From a virus (Duplodnaviria; Heunggongvirae; Uroviricota; Caudoviricetes), in IMG/VR virus record IMGVR_UViG_2645727669_000017: a DNA stretch of 40,004 bases. One strand, given 5' to 3'. Position 1 is the first letter of the stretch. Each line of letters opens with the position of its first letter. The notes under the pieces are model-generated. The model was not told the origin of the DNA, did not search any database, and was given only the letters and a program-made list of their open reading frames with translations. The translations under genes were made by a program, and so were the position numbers. This document shows positions 9,576 through 33,195 of the stretch, piece after piece.

Positions 9576-10119
9576 GCATCACTGGAAAGTGGAAAAACAG
9601 CCTGAGTGGTACGTGAAAGCTGTCAGAAAAACTATCGCGGTGTTGCCGGGGGGTTACGCTGAAGCTGCTGAGTGGCTGGATGTAACAGAGAACGCTTTAT
9701 TCAACCGCCTTCGTGCCGATGGCGATCAGTTTTTTCCGTTGGGATGGGCAATGGTTTTACAGCGTGCGGCTGGTACTCACCACATTGCGGATGCTGTCGC
9801 ACAGTCTGCTGGTGGGGTGTTTGTATCACTTCCAGAAATTGAGGAAGTAGAGAACGCCGATATAAACCAGCGCCTGCTGGAAGTCATCGAACAGATCGGG
9901 AGTTACTCAAAGCAGATTCGTTCGGCAATCGAAGATGGGGTAGTGGAGCCACACGAGCAGACAGCAATTAATGATGAGTTGTATCTGTCAATTTCGAAGC
10001 TCCAGGAGCATGCAGCACTGGTCTACAAAATCTTCTGCGCTCCAGAAAAGAGTAACGCCCGCGAGTGTGCAGCTCCGGGCGTCGTGGCGTTTTGTGTCTG
10101 TGGAGAAACTAACGCATGA
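9568..10119 (+). CDS. CII-like / YdaT-like phage regulatory protein
   Basis: 183-aa ORF with GTG start immediately downstream of cro, overlapping it; assignment by position and size only. Confidence 0.45.
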   Translation: MGKHHWKVEKQPEWYVKAVRKTIAVLPGGYAEAAEWLDVTENALFNRLRADGDQFFPLGWAMVLQRAAGTHHIADAVAQSAGGVFVSLPEIEEVENADINQRLLEVIEQIGSYSKQIRSAIEDGVVEPHEQTAINDELYLSISKLQEHAALVYKIFCAPEKSNARECAAPGVVAFCVCGETNA

Positions 10120-10444: not shown

Positions 10445-10718
10445 TTCTGCAATTCCGGGACGTTACACTGTTCAGGCACCTTATAAAGCGGGTGCCGGGA
10501 TTGGCGTCCTGAAATTGTCAACGGCGATGTATGACGCGCCAGCGTCTTTTTTATCGTCCGCATTTGCTCACATCCAGATTATGGTGGGCTGGGCGGGGGC
10601 ACCGAAAGGTGCGCCGGTCTCCGTTGACGCCGGTTACGCCAACCCCGTCCAGTTCACCACCAGTGAAATTGGCGTTTCCGGTGGTGGAAGTTTTTCACTG
10701 TCAACGGAGGCTGCCATC

Positions 10719-23464: not shown

Positions 23465-24972
23465 TGGCAATTCTTGATGATGTGATTGGCGTTTTTTCAC
23501 CTGGATGGAAAGCGGCAAGGCTGCGTTCCCGTGCGGTGATCCAGGCTTATGAAGCCGTAAAAACGACGCGGACACACAAAGCCCGACGGGAGAACCGAAC
23601 TGCCGACCAGCTAAGCCAGTACGGGGCCGTGTCGTTACGTGAGCAGGCCCGTTACCTTGATAACAACCACGATCTGGTTATTGGTGTATTTGACAAGCTG
23701 GAAGAACGGGTGGTGGGGAAAAACGGGATTATTGTCGAGCCACATCCGGTATTACGCAATGGGGCCATTGCCCGTGATCTGGCAGCGGAGATTCGCACCC
23801 GATGGAGTGAATGGTCTGTCAGCCCGGAAGTCACCGGGCAGTTTACCCGTCCGATGCTGGAACGTCTGATGCTGCGTACCTGGCTGCGCGATGGTGAGGT
23901 GTTTGCCCAGATGGTTTCCGGGCGCATAAACAGCCTGACGCCTTCTGCCGGTGTTCATTTCTGGCTGGAGGCGCTCGAGCCAGACTTTATTCCCATGACC
24001 AGTGATGAGAGCAACAGGCTGAATCAGGGCGTGTTTGTTGATGACTGGGGGCGTCCCGAAAAATATCTGGTGTATAAAAGCCGTCCCGTATCCGGACGGC
24101 AGATGGAAACCAAAGAAGTGGATGCAGAGCGAATGCTGCATCTTAAATTTGTTCGCCGTCTGCACCAGATGCGCGGGACGTCTTTGTTGTCCGGTGTGCT
24201 GATCCGCCTCAGTGCCCTGAAAGATTATGAAGATTATGAGCTGACTGCAGCAAGGATCGCCGCTGCTCTGGGGATGTACATCCGCAAAGGCGACGGGCAG
24301 AGCTATGAACCGGATGGTAATGGCAGCAAGGATAAGGAACGCGAGCTTACCATTCAGCCAGGCATTATTTACGACGATCTGAAACCCGGCGAAGAAATCG
24401 GAATGGTGAAGTCGGATCGCCCCAATCCTAACCTTGAAACTTTTCGTAATGGTCAGTTGCGTGCCGTGGCGGCGGGCAGTCGTCTGAGTTTTTCCAGTAC
24501 AGCGCGCAACTATAACGGCACTTACAGCGCCCAGCGTCAGGAGCTGGTTGAATCTACTGATGGCTACCTGATCCTGCAGGACTGGTTTATTGGTGCCGTC
24601 ACCCGCCCGATGTATCGTGCCTGGCTGAAACAGGCTGTGGCATCCGGTGTTATCAGGCTACCCCGCGATCTTGACCGTTCTTCACTGTATACCGCGGTGT
24701 ATTCCGGACCAGTGATGCCGTGGATTGACCCTGTTAAGGAGGCTGAGGCCTGGAAAATCCAGATTCGTGGTGGAGCGGCGACAGAATCAGACTGGGTACG
24801 TGCTGGTGGTCGTAATCCGGATGATGTCAAACGTCGGCGCAAGGCCGAAATTGATGAAAACCGCAAGCTGGATCTGGTATTTGATACCGATCCGGCCAGT
24901 GATAAAGGAGGCAGTAGTGCCGCAACGAAACGACAGGAGCCGCAGCACACCGACGACCAGTCCGAAGATTAA
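23464..24972 (+). CDS. Portal protein
   Basis: ~502-aa product starting MAILDDVIG; TGATG overlap with W; position between terminase and protease/capsid. Confidence 0.9.
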   Translation: MAILDDVIGVFSPGWKAARLRSRAVIQAYEAVKTTRTHKARRENRTADQLSQYGAVSLREQARYLDNNHDLVIGVFDKLEERVVGKNGIIVEPHPVLRNGAIARDLAAEIRTRWSEWSVSPEVTGQFTRPMLERLMLRTWLRDGEVFAQMVSGRINSLTPSAGVHFWLEALEPDFIPMTSDESNRLNQGVFVDDWGRPEKYLVYKSRPVSGRQMETKEVDAERMLHLKFVRRLHQMRGTSLLSGVLIRLSALKDYEDYELTAARIAAALGMYIRKGDGQSYEPDGNGSKDKERELTIQPGIIYDDLKPGEEIGMVKSDRPNPNLETFRNGQLRAVAAGSRLSFSSTARNYNGTYSAQRQELVESTDGYLILQDWFIGAVTRPMYRAWLKQAVASGVIRLPRDLDRSSLYTAVYSGPVMPWIDPVKEAEAWKIQIRGGAATESDWVRAGGRNPDDVKRRRKAEIDENRKLDLVFDTDPASDKGGSSAATKRQEPQHTDDQSED

Positions 24973-26944
24973 TTCCTGGTTCAGGATGCAGGCTGGTCAC
25001 CAGAGTGACGCGGATATTTATATTTATGACGAGATTGGTTTCTGGGGTGTTACAGCGAAGCAGTTTATCAGTGATCTGAATGCACTGGGCGATATCACCC
25101 ACATTAATCTCCATATTAATTCACCGGGTGGCGATGTCTTTGAAGGCATCGCCATTTTTAATGCGCTGAAAACACATGGTGCGTCCATTACCGTTTATGT
25201 CGACGGTGTGGCGGCGTCAATGGCGTCGGTCATTGCGATGGTAGGAAACCCGGTCATTATGCCGGAAAACACCTTCATGATGATTCATAAACCATTTGGC
25301 TTTACGGGCGGTGATGCGGAGGACATGCGCACCTATGCCGACCTGCTCGATAAAGTTGAGGCGGTTCTGTTACCCGCTTATGCACAGAAAACCGGGAAAA
25401 CCACCGATGAAATTGCTGCCATGCTGGCGGATGAGACCTGGATGTCCGGTGCCGAATGTCTGGCACATGGATTTGCTGATCAGGTAACGCCAGCCGTTAA
25501 GGCAATGGCATGTATTCAGTCAAAACGTACAGAGGAATTTAAAAAGATGCCGGAATCCATTCGAAACATGATTACTCCGCCACGCAACAGTGCTCCACGC
25601 GTACAGGATAATGAACCTGAAGCCTCCCGGACGCCAGTGCAGGCAGCAGCACCCGTGGTGGATGAAAACAGCATCCGTGCGCAGGTACTGGCAGAGCAAA
25701 AAGCGCGTGTAAACGGTATTAATGATCTGTTTGCCATGTTTGGCGGGCGTTATCAGACGCTGCAGGCTCAGTGTCTTGCCGATCCTGAATGTTCGCTGGA
25801 GCAGGCCCGCGAAAAGCTGTTGAACGAGATGGGGCGCGAGTCCACGCCATCCAATAAAAATACCCCGGCTCATATTTATGCCGGTAACGGTAATTTTGTG
25901 GGGGACGGGATCCGCCAGGCGCTGATGGCGCGTGCCGGATTTGAAAAAACCGAACGTGATAATGTCTACAACGGGATGACCCTGCGTGAATATGCCCGTA
26001 TGTCACTGACTGAACGGGGTATTGGGGTTTCCAGTTATAACCCGATGCAGATGGTCGGTGCGGCGTTCACACACAGTACGTCTGACTTCGGTAATATTCT
26101 GCTGGATGTTGCGAACAAAGCCATTCTGCAGGGCTGGGAAGATGCCCCTGAAACCTATGAACAGTGGACGCGGAAAGGTCAGTTGTCTGATTTTAAAATT
26201 GCCCATCGTGTGGGTATGGGGGGCTTCAGTGCTCTGCGTCAGGTGCGTGAAGGGGCGGAATATAAATACGTCACCACCGGAGATAAACAGGCCACTATTG
26301 CACTGGCGACCTATGGCGAGCTGTTCAGTATCACCCGTCAGGCCATTATCAATGATGATCTGAATATGCTGACCGATGTCCCGATGAAACTGGGCCGTGC
26401 GGCGAAATCCACTATTGCCGATCTGGTTTATGCCATTCTGACGTCTAACCCGAAAATCTCCACAGATAATGTAAGTCTGTTCGATAAAGCGAAACATGCA
26501 AACGTACTGGAGAGCGCTGCAATGGACGTGGCATCGCTGGATAAAGCCCGCCAGTTGATGCGCGTTCAGAAAGAGGGGGAGCGTCATCTGAATATTCGTC
26601 CTGCGTTCGTACTGGTACCGACGGCGATGGAGTCTGTTGCTAACCAGGTCATTCGCTCCTCAAGTGTCAAGGGGGCTGACATTAACGCCGGTATTATTAA
26701 CCCGGTGAAAGATTTTGCGACCGTTATTGCAGAGCCTCGTCTTGATGATAACAGCCAGACCACCTTCTACCTGGCTGCGTCAAAAGGCTCCGATACGATT
26801 GAAGTGGCTTATCTCAACGGTGTGGATACGCCATATATTGATCAGATGGAGGGCTTCAGTGTGGATGGCGTGACAACGAAAGTGCGTATTGACGCCGGTG
26901 TCGCGCCAGTTGATCACCGCGGTCTGGTGAAATGTACGGCGTAA
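24917..26944 (+). CDS. Prohead protease (ClpP/S49-like) fused to major capsid protein
   Basis: Single ORF with N-terminal ClpP-like domain (INSPGGDVFEGIAIFNAL...SMASVIAM), a linker and a C-terminal capsid domain; start taken as GTG 24917 with AAGGAGG RBS (alternative ATG 24986). Confidence 0.85.
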   Translation: MPQRNDRSRSTPTTSPKINSWFRMQAGHQSDADIYIYDEIGFWGVTAKQFISDLNALGDITHINLHINSPGGDVFEGIAIFNALKTHGASITVYVDGVAASMASVIAMVGNPVIMPENTFMMIHKPFGFTGGDAEDMRTYADLLDKVEAVLLPAYAQKTGKTTDEIAAMLADETWMSGAECLAHGFADQVTPAVKAMACIQSKRTEEFKKMPESIRNMITPPRNSAPRVQDNEPEASRTPVQAAAPVVDENSIRAQVLAEQKARVNGINDLFAMFGGRYQTLQAQCLADPECSLEQAREKLLNEMGRESTPSNKNTPAHIYAGNGNFVGDGIRQALMARAGFEKTERDNVYNGMTLREYARMSLTERGIGVSSYNPMQMVGAAFTHSTSDFGNILLDVANKAILQGWEDAPETYEQWTRKGQLSDFKIAHRVGMGGFSALRQVREGAEYKYVTTGDKQATIALATYGELFSITRQAIINDDLNMLTDVPMKLGRAAKSTIADLVYAILTSNPKISTDNVSLFDKAKHANVLESAAMDVASLDKARQLMRVQKEGERHLNIRPAFVLVPTAMESVANQVIRSSSVKGADINAGIINPVKDFATVIAEPRLDDNSQTTFYLAASKGSDTIEVAYLNGVDTPYIDQMEGFSVDGVTTKVRIDAGVAPVDHRGLVKCTA

Positions 26945-28620: not shown

Positions 28621-29364
28621 ATGACCACACCAAATCCACTGGCAAAAACGAAAGGTGCGGGAACGACGTTCTGGATGTACACCGGCAAGGGCGATGCGTT
28701 TGCGAACCCTTTATCGGACACTGACTGGCTGCGTCTTGCGATGGTGAAGGATCTGCAGCCTGGCGAAATGACCGCTGATGCAGAAGATGACACTTATCTC
28801 GATGATGAAGATGCAGACTGGAAAACGACAACCCAGGGGCAGAAATCCGTCGGTGATACTTCGGCGACGCTGGCCTGGCGTCCGGGTGACAGCGGGCAGA
28901 AAAAACTGGTTCAGTTGTTCGACTCCGGTGAAGTCTGCGCGTTTCGTATCAAATATCCCAACGGTACTGTTGATGTTTTCCGTGGCTGGCTGAGTTCACT
29001 GGGTAAAACCATTGCCTCAAAAGACGTGATGACCCGCACAGTGAAAATCAGCGGTGTGGGGCGTCCGTATCTGGCAGAAGAAGGCACTGAAACCGTGGGC
29101 GTTACCGGGCTGACGGTGGCACCGGCATCTGCCAGTGTAAAAGTGGGAGCAACCACCACGCTGACCTTTACAGTAAAACCTGACGGAGCCAGTGACAAAG
29201 CGATCAGTGTGCATTCGACAGATCCACAGACTGCCACGGTGACCCTGAACGGGCTTGTGGCCACGGTGAAAGGCGTGAAGCAGGGCAGTGTCAGCATTGT
29301 GGGCATGACTTCTGACGGCGATTTTGTGGCAGTGGCTACGGTGGCCGTCAGCGCCGCAGGTTAA
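28621..29364 (+). CDS. V: Major tail protein V with C-terminal Ig-like domain
   Basis: MTTPNPLAKTKGAGTTFWMY...YLDDEDADW...NGTVDVFRGW closely matches lambda gpV as I recall it; AAGGAGGTG RBS. Confidence 0.9.
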   Translation: MTTPNPLAKTKGAGTTFWMYTGKGDAFANPLSDTDWLRLAMVKDLQPGEMTADAEDDTYLDDEDADWKTTTQGQKSVGDTSATLAWRPGDSGQKKLVQLFDSGEVCAFRIKYPNGTVDVFRGWLSSLGKTIASKDVMTRTVKISGVGRPYLAEEGTETVGVTGLTVAPASASVKVGATTTLTFTVKPDGASDKAISVHSTDPQTATVTLNGLVATVKGVKQGSVSIVGMTSDGDFVAVATVAVSAAG

Positions 29365-29384: not shown

Positions 29385-29408
29385 GCCCCGATTATCCGGG
29401 GCTTTTTT
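29385..29408 (+). terminator. Hairpin plus T-run between V and G (partial terminator or attenuator)
   Basis: GCCCCG-ATTATC-CGGGGC followed by TTTTTT, immediately before the G RBS. Confidence 0.4.
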
Positions 29409-29421
29409 GCAGGTGGAGAAC

Positions 29422-29811
29422 ATGATGTTTCTGAAACAGGGCACGTTTAATTATGAAAAGCAGTCCGTGGTGCTCAGTGAGCTGTCCGGGCTGCAGAGAA
29501 TTGAATATCTGGCGTTTGTTCAGCAGCGAACGGCAAAGTTTGATGCCGAAGAGGGAGAACTGCCGGAGGCTGAACGACAGATTGCTTTTCTGCGGATGGG
29601 GATGGATATCAATGCCTGGCTGGTTTCCCGCTCACTGTGGAATGCGGAACAGTCTCAGGATGTTGAGACGCTTTGCGCATCCGTTATTACAACATGGTCG
29701 TATGATGCCCTGGGAGCGGGGGCGGAGATGGTTCTGTCGCTGAGCGGTATGGGAGCCATTGAGAATGCCGGGGATTTGGAGCATGAGGTGCTGACGCCGG
29801 AAAAGTCCTGA
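29422..29811 (+). CDS. G: Tail assembly chaperone G
   Basis: MMFLKQG... matches lambda gpG pattern (VTLSELSALQRIE); stop at 29809-29811. Confidence 0.85.
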   Translation: MMFLKQGTFNYEKQSVVLSELSGLQRIEYLAFVQQRTAKFDAEEGELPEAERQIAFLRMGMDINAWLVSRSLWNAEQSQDVETLCASVITTWSYDALGAGAEMVLSLSGMGAIENAGDLEHEVLTPEKS

Positions 29812-30149
29812 CGCGGGAAATGCAGTTTGTCATGCGGCTTGCCCGGGAGTTCCGGCGGGCAGACTGGCGGCGGATGCTGTCGGAAATGTCGGCCACTGAG
29901 CTTGGTGAGTGGGGCGATTATTTCCGGATGCAGAGCTTCAGTGATGTGTGGATGGATGCGCAGTTTGCCTCGCTGAAGGCATTGATCGTGAGAATGGTGT
30001 CCGGCAGCAGTGATGCTGCGGTGGCTGATTTCAGCCTTTTACCGGAAGAGAACGGGATACCGGAGCGAACGGACGAAGAACTGATGCATCTTGGGGAAGG
30101 TATTTCCGGAGGTGTGCGTTATGGACCAGATAGCCAACCTGGTCATTGA
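29787..30149 (+). CDS. T: T segment of the tail assembly chaperone G-T fusion, reached by a -1 programmed frameshift near the 3' end of G
   Basis: The -1 frame is open from 29787 to 30149 and overlaps the last 8 codons of G; candidate slippery heptamer GGAAAAG at 29799-29805. Confidence 0.7.
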   Translation, partial: GADAGKVLTREMQFVMRLAREFRRADWRRMLSEMSATELGEWGDYFRMQSFSDVWMDAQFASLKALIVRMVSGSSDAAVADFSLLPEENGIPERTDEELMHLGEGISGGVRYGPDSQPGH

Positions 30150-33100
30150 TTTGGGGATTGATGCGGCAGAGTTTAAAAATGAAATTCCCCGTATCAAAAA
30201 CCTTCTGAATGGTGCAGCCAGCGATGCAGAACGGTCTTCTGCCCGTATGCAGCGTTTTATGGAGCGTCAGACTCAGGCCGCCCGGCAGACAATGCAGGCG
30301 GCTTCTTCGGCTGCAACAGCCGCATCCGTCCATGCGCAGACGGTGGAGAAGAGCGCACAGGCTCATGAACGCATGGCCCGCGAGGTGGAGCAAACCCGCC
30401 AGCGTATGGAGGCACTGAGCCAGAAAATGCGCGAGGAACAGGCACAGGCCATGGCTCTGGCGGAGGCTCAGGATAAAGCGGCTGCCGCGTTTTATCGTCA
30501 GATTGACAGTGTGAAACAGGCCAGTGCGGGGTTGCAGGAATTACAGCGTATTCAGCAGCAGATCCGACAGGCCAGAAACAGTGGCGGGATTGGTCAGCAG
30601 GATTATCTGGCGCTGATTTCTGAGGTTACGGCGAAAACCCGTGTTCTTACGCAGGCTGAGGCAGAGGCTACCCGACAGAAAGTGGCGTTTATCCGTCAGC
30701 TTAAAGAGCAGGCAACCCGCCAGAATCTTTCTTCTTCTGAGTTGCTTCGTGCCAGGGCTGCCCAGCTGGGGGTAAGCAGTGCTGCAGAAGTGTATATCCG
30801 CAAAATGGAGCGGGCAGGAAAAGCCACGCATTCGCTGGGTCTGAAAAGTGCAGCGGCCCGCCAGGAGATAGGCGTTCTGATAGGTGAACTGGCCCGCGGC
30901 AATTTAGGGGCGCTGAGGGGATCCGGGATAACGCTGGCTAACCGTGCCGGATGGATAGACACACTGATGTCACCGAAAGGCATGATGCTGGGCGGGGTTA
31001 TTGGCGGTATTACCGCGGCCGTCTATGGTCTGGGTAAAGCCTGGTATGACGGTCAGAAGGAGGGGGAAGAATTTAACCGCCAGCTGTCGCTGACGGGGCA
31101 TTATGCCGGAGTCACTGCCGGGCAGCTGTGGACGCTCAGTCGTGCTATTTCCGGGAATGGTATCACGCAACATGCTGCAGCCGGTGCGCTGGCTCAGGTG
31201 GTGGGGAGTGGTGCATTTCGTGGAAACGATATCGGTATGGTGGCGAGAGCTGCCGCACAGATGGAGCGATCGGTTGGCCAGTCGATCAGCGATACCATAA
31301 ATCAGTTTAAGCGGCTGAAGGATGATCCTGTAAATGCCGCGAAGGCTCTGGACAATGAGCTGCATTTTCTTACTGCCACTCAGCTTGAGCAGATACGCAT
31401 CCTTGGAGAGCAGGGGCGGTCCAGTGATGCGGCACGGATAGCCATGTCTGCACTGGCAGAGGAAACCGGTCGGCGTACTGCGGATATTGATAATAACCTC
31501 AATGCGCTGGGTAGTACGCTGCAAACCTTGTCTGACTGGTGGAAGCAGTTCTGGGATGCGGCCATGAATATTGGTCGTGAAGATTCGCTGGATGCGCAGA
31601 TTGCCACTTTGCAGGAGAAAGTATCGCGGGCGAAAAGACTCCCCTGGACGGCATCATCTTCTCAGGTTGAATACGATCAGCAGCGTCTTAACGAGCTTCA
31701 GGAGAAAAAACGCCAGAAGGATTTGCAGGATGCAAAAGAGCAGGCAGAGCGGAATTATCAGGAGCAACAGAAACGACGTAATGCTGAAAATGCTGCACTG
31801 AACCGGATGAATGAAACGGAAGCAGCACGACATCAGCGTGAAATTGCGCGTATTAATGCCATGCAGTACGCCGACCAGGCTGTCAGGGATGCGGCGATAC
31901 AACGTGAAAATGAACGTTACGAGAAAGCCCTGGCATCCGGTAAGAAAAAAACACGCGAAACCCGTAATGATGAGGCCACCCGGTTATTGCTGCAGTACAG
32001 TCAGCAACAGGCACAGGTGGAAGGACAGATTGCTGCTGCAAGACAGTCAGCAGGCATTGCCACTGAAAAGATGACAGAAGCGCATAAACAGCTTCTGGCT
32101 CTGCAGCAGCGCATCAGCGACCTGGACGGGAAAAAACTGACGGCAGATGAAAAGAGTGTGCTGGCCCGTAAAGATGAACTGATTCAGGCACTGACGCTGC
32201 TGGATGTAAAACAGCAGGAGCTTCAGAAACAGACGGCACTCAACGATCTGAAGAAAAAAACAATTCAGCTGACCAGTCAACTGGCTGAAGAAGAGCGCGC
32301 TCAGCGTCAGCAACATGACCTGGATATCGCCACGGTGGGTATGGGTGATCAGCAGCGGCAGCGATATCAGGTACAACTGAGCCTTCGCCAGAAATACCAG
32401 CAACAGCTGGAGCAGTTGAGGCGGGATAGTGAGCAGAAAGGGACATATAACACGGATGACTACAGAAAGGCCGAGCAGGCGCTGACGGAGAGCCTGAACA
32501 GGCAACTGAATGAGAATCGCCGTTACTGGCAACAGCTTGAAATTGCTCAGGGTAACTGGAAAAACGGTGCCATGCGGGCGTTTCAGAATTTCACGGCAGA
32601 TGCGGATAATGCGGCAGGCACTGCGGAGCAGATGCTTACAGCGGCATTTAATAGTGCAGGTAATGCACTGGCTACATTCTGTACCACCGGAAAACTGAAC
32701 TTCAAATCTTTTACCGCCTCGCTCCTTTCTGATCTGGCAAAAATCATGGCTCAGATGTCCATGATGCAGGCAGTTAAGGGGATTGGTTCGGCGTTTGGCT
32801 GGGGGAGTGCAGCAACTGCCAGTGTGACGCCCAATGCTGATGGTGGTGTTTATCAGTCTGCTGATTTGAGTCGCTACAGTGGCACGGTGGTTAACCGTCC
32901 GACGTTTTTTGCTTTTGCAAAAGGTGCAGGTGTGATGGGGGAAGCTGGGCCTGAAGCCATTCTGCCTCTGCGTCGTGGTGCTGACGGTAAGCTGGGGGTT
33001 GTGGCGGATATTGGTGGTTCAGGTATGGCGATGTTTGCCCCGCAGTACAACATCGAGATCAATAACGATGGCACGAACGGGCAGATAGGTCCGGCTGCCC

Positions 33101-33195
33101 TGAAGGTGGTTTATGACCTCGGGAAAAAAGCAGCAGCGGACTTTATGCAACAGCAGTCCCGTGATGGTGGTCTGTTCTCCGGAGGTGGACGATGA
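30121..33195 (+). CDS. H: Tail tape measure protein H
   Basis: ~1024-aa product; N-terminus MDQIANLVIDLGIDAAEF and C-terminus NNDGTNGQIGPAALKVVYD...RDGGLFSGGGR match lambda gpH as I recall it; GGAGGTG RBS. Confidence 0.9.
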   Translation: MDQIANLVIDLGIDAAEFKNEIPRIKNLLNGAASDAERSSARMQRFMERQTQAARQTMQAASSAATAASVHAQTVEKSAQAHERMAREVEQTRQRMEALSQKMREEQAQAMALAEAQDKAAAAFYRQIDSVKQASAGLQELQRIQQQIRQARNSGGIGQQDYLALISEVTAKTRVLTQAEAEATRQKVAFIRQLKEQATRQNLSSSELLRARAAQLGVSSAAEVYIRKMERAGKATHSLGLKSAAARQEIGVLIGELARGNLGALRGSGITLANRAGWIDTLMSPKGMMLGGVIGGITAAVYGLGKAWYDGQKEGEEFNRQLSLTGHYAGVTAGQLWTLSRAISGNGITQHAAAGALAQVVGSGAFRGNDIGMVARAAAQMERSVGQSISDTINQFKRLKDDPVNAAKALDNELHFLTATQLEQIRILGEQGRSSDAARIAMSALAEETGRRTADIDNNLNALGSTLQTLSDWWKQFWDAAMNIGREDSLDAQIATLQEKVSRAKRLPWTASSSQVEYDQQRLNELQEKKRQKDLQDAKEQAERNYQEQQKRRNAENAALNRMNETEAARHQREIARINAMQYADQAVRDAAIQRENERYEKALASGKKKTRETRNDEATRLLLQYSQQQAQVEGQIAAARQSAGIATEKMTEAHKQLLALQQRISDLDGKKLTADEKSVLARKDELIQALTLLDVKQQELQKQTALNDLKKKTIQLTSQLAEEERAQRQQHDLDIATVGMGDQQRQRYQVQLSLRQKYQQQLEQLRRDSEQKGTYNTDDYRKAEQALTESLNRQLNENRRYWQQLEIAQGNWKNGAMRAFQNFTADADNAAGTAEQMLTAAFNSAGNALATFCTTGKLNFKSFTASLLSDLAKIMAQMSMMQAVKGIGSAFGWGSAATASVTPNADGGVYQSADLSRYSGTVVNRPTFFAFAKGAGVMGEAGPEAILPLRRGADGKLGVVADIGGSGMAMFAPQYNIEINNDGTNGQIGPAALKVVYDLGKKAAADFMQQQSRDGGLFSGGGR

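What the first reader, a model, noticed from the sequence alone, without database searches (positions are those of the whole stretch)
29787..29811. G-T programmed -1 frameshift with a GGAAAAG slippery site
The T frame is open only in the -1 frame and overlaps the last 8 codons of G. The only slippery candidate in the overlap is G-GAA-AAG (29799-29805), which differs by one base from the G-GGA-AAG heptamer I recall for lambda. Frameshifting would yield the GT fusion chaperone needed for tail assembly.
Basis: partly seen in the sequence, partly recalled or inferred. Interest (0 to 1): 0.45.

Follow-up and report, generated by a model that had tools for sequence, protein, structure and literature searches.

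The report
Phage tail chaperone G-T frameshift site
This is the usual lambda-type -1 ribosomal frameshift that makes a small amount of a fused G-T tail-assembly chaperone; its GGAAAAG slip site is the common form in this gene family and is already annotated in phage N15, so the finding is correct but ordinary.

Summary
G (29425-29811, Pfam Phage_TAC_2) ends ACG CCG GAA AAG TCC TGA. The T reading frame (Pfam Phage_tail_T) is open only in the -1 frame, from 29787. G_GAA_AAG (29799-29805) is the only in-phase site in the 25-nt overlap where the A-site tRNA can re-pair.

- C-GGAAAAG is invariant across diverged relatives whose upstream ~45 nt are hypervariable.
- T-frame homology (GK[VA][LF]xxExxF) starts at the heptamer.
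- The ATG at 29820, annotated as the T start, has no Shine-Dalgarno sequence and is not conserved.

GGAAAAG is not a degraded lambda site. It occupies the homologous position in N15 and LLS, where GenBank annotates it as the slippery sequence, and in phi80, Gifsy-1 and 7 of 10 distant family members sampled. 37 of 48 family representatives end in ...EK....

No downstream RNA structure was found. An upstream SD-like GAGGTG, 8 nt 5' of the site, is a possible stimulator but unproven.

The predicted product is a 241-aa, 27-kDa GT fusion. That fusion is absent from public protein collections, which carry a stand-alone 109-aa T instead. This is a known mechanism and a known site, so interest is low.

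The parts
28621..29364 (+). Major tail tube protein gene (lambda V homologue), immediately upstream of G
   Evidence: Pfam Phage_TTP_12 1.5e-66 plus Big_2. Annotated as a 744-nt major tail protein in Ayreon, mEp460 and CE10.
29385..29408 (+). Terminator-like GC hairpin plus T-run between V and G
   Evidence: Consensus scan. Annotated as a rho-independent terminator in mEp460 and Ayreon, and at the same place in N15.
29425..29811 (+). Tail assembly chaperone gene G (128 aa, 14.2 kDa). An alternative ATG lies at 29422.
   Evidence: Pfam Phage_TAC_2 1.7e-39; translation; mass.
29785..29790 (+). SD-like GAGGTG, 8 nt 5' of the heptamer. Possible upstream frameshift stimulator (inferred, unproven).
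   Evidence: Anti-SD duplex -9.2 kcal/mol, empirical p about 0.04 against other positions in G/T. Similar GGAGG/GAGG elements occur in other short-tail lineages. None occurs in N15, phi80 or lambda.
29787..29811 (+). G / T(-1 frame) overlap window
   Evidence: -1 frame stop TGA at 29784-29786; G stop at 29809-29811.
29799..29805 (+). Slippery heptamer G_GAA_AAG. The A-site tRNA-Lys moves AAG to AAA. The P-site tRNA-Glu moves GAA to GGA, with a central G.U pair.
   Evidence: Sequence. Invariant in 189 related loci, 23 distinct junctions, and in Gifsy-1, phi80, LLS and N15. Present in 7 of 10 distant family members. Annotated as the slippery sequence in N15 and LLS.
29805..30149 (+). T segment read in the -1 frame after the shift (114 codons plus stop). 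The predicted GT fusion is 241 aa, 27.1 kDa.
   Evidence: Translation; Pfam Phage_tail_T 5.1e-15; homology from the heptamer onward.
29820..29822 (+). ATG used as the T start in public annotation. Probably an internal Met codon, not a start.
   Evidence: Best SD duplex is -1.1 kcal/mol, against -7 to -14 for real starts. The position is M/L/I/R in relatives. Several relatives have no start codon before codon 25.
30121..33195 (+). Tape measure protein gene (lambda H homologue). Its SD GGAGGTG (30108-30114) and its ATG are embedded in the T codons for GGVRYG.
   Evidence: Pfam TMP_2, Tape_meas_lam_C and TMP_4; SD -13.1 kcal/mol; sequence.

Best explanation
This is a programmed -1 ribosomal frameshift of the lambda G/GT type.

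Most ribosomes translate G (128 aa) and stop at TGA 29809. A minority slip back one base on G_GAA_AAG (29799-29805). In that slip:
- peptidyl-tRNA-Glu moves from GAA to GGA (C-G, U.G, U-A pairing);
- Lys-tRNA moves from AAG to its fully cognate AAA;
- reading resumes at GTC 29805 in the T frame.

The product is a 241-aa G-T fusion with the junction ...LTPEK|VLTREMQF.... By homology to lambda, the G part binds the tape measure protein and the T part recruits the tail tube protein. The low shift rate sets a high G:GT ratio.

What is shown here: the anatomy, the homology, conservation of the site, and the absence of a credible T start. What is inferred: that shifting occurs, its rate, two-tRNA versus one-tRNA slippage, and any help from the upstream SD-like GAGGTG.
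For: - G and T are Pfam Phage_TAC_2 and Phage_tail_T, lying between V and H.
- T is open only in the -1 frame, with a 25-nt overlap.
- The heptamer is the only re-pairable site in the overlap.
- C-GGAAAAG is invariant across 11 diverged lineages. Their upstream 43 nt show only 59% majority identity.
- The same heptamer sits at the homologous position in Gifsy-1, phi80, LLS and N15, and in 7 of 10 relatives sampled from the 50%-identity cluster representatives (26-46% identity to the window G; junctions).
- The base before GAA is always G, although the preceding codon changes (CCG, GCG, CTG, GTG). The frequency of G-ending codons in those codon boxes is 0.24-0.75.
- In L092 the post-heptamer codons differ (GTA TTA versus GTC CTG). 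They keep V-L in the -1 frame but change the 0-frame residue. This indicates selection on the -1 frame directly after the site.
- T-frame homology GK[VA][LF]xxExxF[VA]xxLARE starts at the heptamer in all 17 sequences compared, including lambda.
- ATG 29820 has no SD (-1.1 kcal/mol) and is not conserved.
- N15 and LLS GenBank records annotate GGAAAAG as the -1 slippery sequence. Gifsy-1 T is annotated as a frameshift product.
- Lambda G:GT is about 30:1 and is needed for tail assembly (PMC5009743).
- A_AAG is the most shift-prone tetramer in E. coli (PMC4066793).
Against: - No measurement of frameshifting exists for this allele.
- G_GAA_AAG is not a canonical X_XXY_YYZ heptamer. Peng et al. 2019 (PMC6924986) chose AUG GAA AAG as the 'unfavourable' control and saw mainly 0-frame product in vitro.
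- A_AAG without a stimulator was barely above background in vivo, about 0.15% (PMC4066793).
- No downstream structure is conserved or stable.
- All public records for this allele annotate T as a separate gene.
Confidence: 0.85

Rival explanations
1. The same -1 frameshift happens, but as single-tRNA slippage. Only Lys-tRNA slips on the A_AAG tetramer, either in the A site or in the P site while UCC and then UGA are awaited. tRNA-Glu re-pairing plays no part.
For: - A_AAG alone supports up to 5.6% shifting with a strong stimulator.
- One relative has A_GCA_AAG and another group has GCA_AAA + TAG, where P-site re-pairing is impossible.
- In several relatives the G stop follows the Lys codon directly.
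- Peng et al. describe GAA to GGA as a second-position mismatch.
Against: - The first G of the heptamer is invariant through four different preceding codons (CCG, GCG, CTG, GTG) in more than 10 lineages. A pure tetramer mechanism gives no reason for that.
- No strong stimulator of the kind a tetramer needs was found.
Confidence: 0.2
2. T is made on its own from ATG 29820, as GenBank and PGAP annotate it. This could work by termination-reinitiation after the G stop 9 nt upstream. No frameshift is needed.
For: - An in-frame ATG lies 9 nt after the G stop.
- All records for this allele annotate a 109-aa T.
- That 109-aa protein is on at least 1000 contigs in public collections.
Against: - The SD duplex is -1.1 kcal/mol, against -7 to -14 for neighbouring real starts.
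- The ATG aligns with L/I/R in Gifsy-1, Salmonella lineages, L192, phi80, N15 and lambda. L107, phi80 and LLS have no ATG/GTG/TTG before codon 25.
- Protein homology extends 7 codons upstream of the ATG, to the heptamer.
- In lambda, function requires T fused to G (PMC5009743).
Confidence: 0.06
3. The GT fusion arises by transcriptional slippage of RNA polymerase on the A-run, not by ribosomal slippage.
For: The site contains a run of A, and a deleted A in the mRNA would give the same fusion frame.
Against: - The run is only 4 A. From established knowledge, productive transcriptional slippage in bacteria needs runs of roughly 7-9 or more.
- The conserved unit is the phased heptamer including the flanking G's, not the A-run length.
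Confidence: 0.01

Closest known systems
Phage lambda G / GT (-1 frameshift at G_GGA_AAG; Levin, Hendrix & Casjens 1993; Xu, Hendrix & Duda 2004, 2013, 2014, as cited in PMC5009743)
   Same: - Homologous G and T proteins (31% identity for G).
- Same gene order V-G-T-H.
- T is in the -1 frame.
- The shift site is at the homologous position, with an AAG Lys codon in the A site.
- The T sequence after the shift is GKV(F/L)xxE.
- No downstream structure.
   Different: - The P-site codon is GAA (Glu) instead of GGA (Gly). Re-pairing therefore has a central G.U, rather than lambda's re-pairing of tRNA-Gly from GGA to GGG, where only the third codon position changes.
- The G stop is 1 codon after the site instead of 5.
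- A possible SD-like element lies upstream, which lambda lacks.
Phage N15 genes 14/15 (NC_001901) and phage LLS genes 11/12 (PQ299149)
   Same: - The identical heptamer GGAAAAG in the same phase and at the homologous position.
- It is explicitly annotated as the -1 slippery sequence.
   Different: - G is only about 34% identical (measured for LLS and phi80, not directly for N15).
- The preceding codon is GCG or GTG.
- The G stop is 5 codons downstream.
- There is no SD-like element upstream.
Salmonella phage Gifsy-1 STM2596/STM2595
   Same: - Same short-tail clade (56% identity).
- Identical junction ACG CCG GAA AAG TCC TGA.
- T is annotated as 'part of gpG by translational frameshifting'.
   Different: - The residue at the window's ATG 29820 position is Leu.
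- The upstream SD-like match is weak.
E. coli dnaX (A_AAA_AAG with an internal SD 10 nt upstream and a 3' stem-loop) and IS3 (A_AAG tetramer with a pseudoknot)
   Same: - The A-site tRNA-Lys slips from AAG to AAA.
- The window has an SD-like GAGGTG at a comparable distance, 8 nt from the heptamer and 11 nt from the A_AAG tetramer.
   Different: - There is no 3' stem-loop or pseudoknot.
- The genes are unrelated.
- The expected efficiency is far lower.

Membership tests
Lambda-type G/GT tail assembly chaperone with -1 programmed frameshift | Upstream ORF is a gpG-family chaperone located between the tail tube gene and the tape measure gene | tested here: met
   Pfam PF06894 1.7e-39. The neighbours are Phage_TTP_12 and TMP_2/Tape_meas_lam_C.
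Lambda-type G/GT tail assembly chaperone with -1 programmed frameshift | Downstream gpT-family ORF in the -1 frame, overlapping the 3' end of G | tested here: met
   Pfam PF06223 5.1e-15. The -1 frame is open 29787-30149, with a 25-nt overlap.
Lambda-type G/GT tail assembly chaperone with -1 programmed frameshift | T lacks its own conserved start codon and ribosome-binding site | tested here: met
   ATG 29820 has SD -1.1 kcal/mol. The position is M/L/I/R in relatives. No start codon occurs before codon 25 in L107, phi80 or LLS.
Lambda-type G/GT tail assembly chaperone with -1 programmed frameshift | A conserved in-phase slippery site in the overlap, at the position homologous to lambda's | tested here: met
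   G_GAA_AAG is invariant in the clade and present in N15, phi80, LLS, Gifsy-1 and 7 of 10 distant members. Lambda has G_GGA_AAG and Stx phages have A_AAA_AAG at the same place.
Lambda-type G/GT tail assembly chaperone with -1 programmed frameshift | -1-frame protein homology continues directly from the shift site | tested here: met
   GK[VA][LF]xxExxF... aligns from the heptamer in 17 sequences. In L092, changes that are synonymous in the -1 frame alter the 0 frame.
Lambda-type G/GT tail assembly chaperone with -1 programmed frameshift | GT fusion actually produced at a few percent of G and required for tail assembly | not testable with these tools
   Needs a reporter assay, western blot, mass spectrometry or genetics. 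The predicted 241-aa GT is absent from public protein collections.
Canonical tandem-slippage heptamer X_XXY_YYZ | First three bases identical, so that the P-site tRNA re-pairs with a change at the wobble position only | tested here: not met
   G_GAA: the -1 codon GGA gives a second-position G.U with tRNA-Glu (stated in PMC6924986). The A-site half, A_AAG, is canonical.
Stimulated bacterial -1 frameshift cassette (dnaX / IS911 / IS3 type) | Stable, conserved 3' stem-loop or pseudoknot 5-9 nt after the site | tested here: not met
   RNAalifold finds nothing in the first 60 nt. MFE z-scores range from -1.2 to +0.8 across the clade. The window z-score is +0.53.
Stimulated bacterial -1 frameshift cassette (dnaX / IS911 / IS3 type) | Internal Shine-Dalgarno-like sequence about 10 nt 5' of the site | tested here: inconclusive
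   GAGGTG lies 8 nt upstream (-9.2 kcal/mol, empirical p 0.04). Fisher p is 0.0014 over 10 non-independent lineages. The match is weak in mEp460-type, L112 and L193, and absent in N15, phi80 and lambda.
Transcriptional slippage site | Homopolymer run long enough for RNA polymerase slippage (about 7-9 or more A/T) | tested here: not met
   The run is only 4 A.

The most novel reading that the evidence does not exclude
G_GAA_AAG is the very sequence a ribosome-kinetics study used as its poorly slippery control. Yet it may be the modal, selected shift site of the whole lambda-G chaperone family: 37 of 48 cluster representatives end in ...EK..., and the first-base G is kept through P/A/L/V changes of the preceding codon.

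That would imply selection for a near-cognate P-site re-pairing (tRNA-Glu on GGA with a central G.U) that sets a very low GT:G ratio. In the short-tail clade that includes this window, an SD-like element 8-10 nt upstream may tune the rate.

The open-access literature I could search does not discuss this site in phages. It may, however, be covered in Xu et al. 2004, which I could not read.
Probability: 0.2. Interest if true: 0.35.

Novelty: already known. Interest (0 to 1): 0.15.

Why it matters
Biologically it adds little. G-T frameshifting is a textbook conserved feature of long-tailed phages, and GGAAAAG is already flagged as the slip site in N15 and LLS.

The practical value is for annotation. 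This module sits in 1848 of 5426 complete E. coli genomes. Everywhere I looked it is annotated as G plus a stand-alone 109-aa T. The likely real product, a 241-aa GT fusion, is absent from a 15-billion-protein collection.

A minor mechanistic point also follows. The family mostly uses a non-canonical heptamer that motif searches restricted to X_XXZ_ZZN would miss.

Tried and rejected
- Downstream stimulatory structure: RNAalifold and per-sequence MFE with shuffles on 11 lineages, and strand folding on 29806-29875 (z +0.53). Nothing was conserved or unusually stable. The 5-bp UCCUG/CGGGA hairpin starts at +1, so it would lie inside the ribosome, and it is absent in Salmonella lineages.
- Rfam scan of the whole window: no frameshift element.
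- Other slip sites in the overlap: none allows A-site re-pairing.
- Independent T start: rejected on SD strength and non-conservation.
- Transcriptional slippage: rejected, since the run is only A4.
- Chance occurrence of the heptamer string: it is not enriched in the window, so the string count alone is no evidence.
- The first viral-contig scan returned only near-identical copies. The genome-contig scan returned only 11 loci. Diversity came from scans with diverged queries and from exact-protein look-ups.
- Literature searches for GGAAAAG as a phage slip site in the open-access library found none. Xu et al. 2004 is not held.
- The upstream SD-like element as a general compensator for the weak heptamer: not supported, because N15, phi80 and LLS use GGAAAAG without it.

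Full report
**1. What is in the sequence**

The region is a lambda-like tail module on the + strand:
- tail tube gene, 28621-29364 (Pfam Phage_TTP_12 1.5e-66, plus Big_2);
- G, 29425-29811 (Phage_TAC_2 1.7e-39);
- a T reading frame (Phage_tail_T 5.1e-15);
- the tape measure gene, 30121-33195 (TMP_2, Tape_meas_lam_C);
- M- and L-like genes further on.

G ends ...GAG GTG CTG ACG CCG GAA AAG TCC TGA. The -1 frame has a TGA at 29784-29786 and is then open from 29787 to 30149.

GGAAAAG is at 29799-29805 in the phase G_GAA_AAG. Going through every in-phase heptamer of the overlap, it is the only one where the A-site tRNA can re-pair (AAG to AAA). Lambda has GCG GGA AAG at the corresponding place, one base different.

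The heptamer string alone is not unusual: 9 copies in the window against 5.8 expected. What matters is its phase, its position and its conservation.

**2. Where the window comes from**

The G-T segment matches known phages and prophages closely:

| Match | Identity |
|---|---|
| Prophage of E. coli CE10 | 100% |
| Phages Ayreon and phi458 | 99.6% |
| mEp460, cdtI | ~98% |

The segment occurs in 1848 of 5426 complete E. coli genomes.

None of the records I opened joins G and T. Ayreon calls T from a later ATG. mEp460, Tritos and RefSeq/PGAP call T as a 109-aa protein from ATG 29820. The exact 109-aa T is on at least 1000 contigs in the public protein collection. The predicted 241- or 242-aa fusion is not there at all.

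**3. Comparative evidence for the shift site**

From 189 related loci in viral and genome collections I obtained 23 distinct junctions. Every member of the window's clade has CCG GAA AAG YCC TGA. This holds although G proteins fall to about 55% identity and the roughly 20 codons before the site are hypervariable.

Anchoring 11 diverged lineages on the heptamer gave these majority identities:

| Segment relative to heptamer | Majority identity |
|---|---|
| -45 to -3 | 59% |
| Island around C-GGAAAAG | 90% (the 8 bases themselves invariant) |

A 41%-identical homologue from Symbiopectobacterium has GCG GAA AAG TAT TAA. Its -1 frame still reads G-K-V-L, through GTA TTA instead of GTC CTG, while the 0-frame residue changes. 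So the constraint just after the site is on the -1 frame.

Named phages show the following at the homologous position:

| Phage | Junction | Site |
|---|---|---|
| Gifsy-1 | ACG CCG GAA AAG TCC TGA | G_GAA_AAG |
| phi80 | GCG GAA AAG | G_GAA_AAG |
| LLS | GTG GAA AAG | G_GAA_AAG |
| N15 | GCG GAA AAG | G_GAA_AAG |
| An Stx2a phage | TCA AAA AAG | A_AAA_AAG |
| Lambda | GCG GGA AAG | G_GGA_AAG |

An exhaustive HMMER search of 50%-identity cluster representatives gave 48 full-length G proteins. Their C-terminal motifs split as follows:

| C-terminal motif | Count |
|---|---|
| ...EK... | 37 |
| GK | 4 |
| AK | 3 |
| KK | 3 |

I fetched DNA for ten of the distant representatives:

| Site | Number of ten |
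|---|---|
| G_GAA_AAG (preceded by GCG, CTG or GTG) | 7 |
| G_GGA_AAG | 2 |
| A_GCA_AAG | 1 |

The base before GAA is always G, whichever amino acid precedes it. The G-ending codon is used at only 0.24-0.75 in those codon boxes in this phage. That points to selection on the full heptamer, not only on A_AAG.

**4. Does T have its own start?**

Three observations argue that it does not:
- The best anti-SD duplex upstream of ATG 29820 is -1.1 kcal/mol. The values for G, H and M are -7.0, -13.1 and -13.8.
- In an alignment of the -1 frame from the heptamer, all 17 sequences, including lambda, share GK[VA][LF]xxE[LMIR]xF[VAS]xxLARE. The Met of 29820 aligns with Leu, Ile or Arg elsewhere.
- L107, phi80 and LLS have no ATG, GTG or TTG before codon 25.

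T homology therefore begins at the shift site, 7 codons upstream of the annotated start. The independent-start model looks like an annotation artefact of a Met at a hydrophobic position.

**5. Mechanism**

The shown facts fit the lambda model (PMC5009743). G is the main product. A minority of ribosomes shift -1 near the end of G to make GT, and the G:GT ratio of about 30:1 is critical for tail assembly. The G part binds the tape measure protein and the T part binds the tube protein.

In this window the shift would give ...LTPEK|VLTREMQF..., a protein of 241 aa and 27.1 kDa. G alone is 14.2 kDa.

The A-site half, A_AAG, is the best -1 tetramer in E. coli. On its own it is near background, about 0.15%, and it reaches 5.6% only with a strong pseudoknot (PMC4066793).

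The P-site half is non-canonical. tRNA-Glu must re-pair with GGA, giving a second-position G.U. Peng et al. 2019 used AUG GAA AAG as their unfavourable control for that reason and saw mainly 0-frame product (PMC6924986). The PRFect authors note the same GAA to GGA re-pairing in the mycobacteriophage GGGGGAA motif, and they list a 'twofour' motif class (PMC10885494); GGAAAA fits what that name implies (two identical bases, then four), though I did not read their definition of it.

I infer a low shift rate, probably at or below lambda's few percent. I could not measure it.

**6. Stimulators**

No downstream structure was found:
- RNAalifold gives nothing in the first 60 nt.
- MFE z-scores across the clade range from -1.2 to +0.8.
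- The window's 70 nt give z = +0.53.

Upstream, the window has GAGGTG at 29785-29790. It lies 8 nt before the heptamer and 11 nt before A_AAG, and has an anti-SD duplex of -9.2 kcal/mol. This resembles the dnaX internal SD, which lies 10 nt upstream.

Against all other positions in G/T the empirical p is about 0.04. Over ten short-tail lineages Fisher's p is 0.0014, but those lineages are not independent. mEp460-type (GAGGCG), L112 and L193 match weakly. N15, phi80, LLS and lambda have nothing. I treat this element as a possible, clade-specific modulator, not as part of the core signal.

**7. Comparison with what is known, and novelty**

The mechanism is the known conserved G-T frameshift. The heptamer itself is already on record:
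- N15's GenBank entry marks 10027-10033, GGAAAAG, as 'slippery sequence for -1 translational frameshift'.
- Phage LLS carries a joined CDS and a misc_feature naming GGAAAAG.
- Gifsy-1, which has the identical junction, annotates T as part of gpG by frameshifting.

The open-access literature I could search does not discuss GGAAAAG in phages. I could not read Xu et al. 2004.

My verdict is that the finding is correct and already known in kind and in site. The residual value is twofold: an annotation gap for a very common E. coli prophage module, and the modest point that lambda's canonical heptamer is the minority form in its own family.

Noticed in passing
window 10476-10552 and 10577-10664 (+): Rfam gathering-level hits to isrK Hfq-binding RNA (62 bits) and C4 antisense RNA (81 bits), adjacent to each other. 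This looks like a P1/P7-type c4/ant-like immunity RNA module in the early region of this prophage.
   Followed up: no
window 29385-29408 (+): GC-rich hairpin GCCCCGATTATCCGGGGC followed by TTTTTT, between the tail tube gene and G. It is annotated as a rho-independent terminator in mEp460 and Ayreon, and a similar one sits at the same place in N15. It may lower G/T/H transcription relative to V.
   Followed up: partly
window 30108-30123 (+): The tape measure gene's strong SD GGAGGTG and its ATG are encoded inside the T codons for the conserved C-terminal motif GGVRYG (GGA GGT GTG CGT TAT GGA). One 16-nt stretch thus serves as conserved T peptide, ribosome-binding site and H start codon. Lambda T ends with the same GGVRYG.
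   Followed up: partly
window 29820-30149; public records MF807953, JQ182728, OV696610, NC_017646: T is annotated everywhere as a stand-alone protein, 109 aa from ATG 29820 or shorter. The exact 241- or 242-aa GT fusion is absent from a collection of about 15 billion proteins, while the 109-aa form is on at least 1000 contigs.
   Followed up: yes
proteins P0032, P0049, P0001: These are rare variant gene calls in public assemblies. Two are in-frame G-T fusions created by internal deletions; P0049 joins ...SYDA directly to GKVLTREMQF in the T frame. One G carries an internal duplication of about 55 residues. They could be natural mutants or assembly errors.
   Followed up: no
loci L108/L109 (viral contigs), L210 (LR134155.1), L201/L205: Some G homologues lack any two-tRNA heptamer. 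Examples are GCA AAA TAG (A_AAA followed directly by the stop) and CCA GCA AAG TCC TAG (A_AAG only). In L201 and L205, G_GAA_AAG is followed immediately by TAG. These could be natural test cases for tetramer or stop-adjacent slippage in G-T genes.
   Followed up: partly
window 24725-26944 (+): Long ORF annotated in the identical CE10 prophage as a ClpP-like prohead protease / major capsid protein fusion. The head module is therefore not lambda-like, although the tail module is.
   Followed up: no
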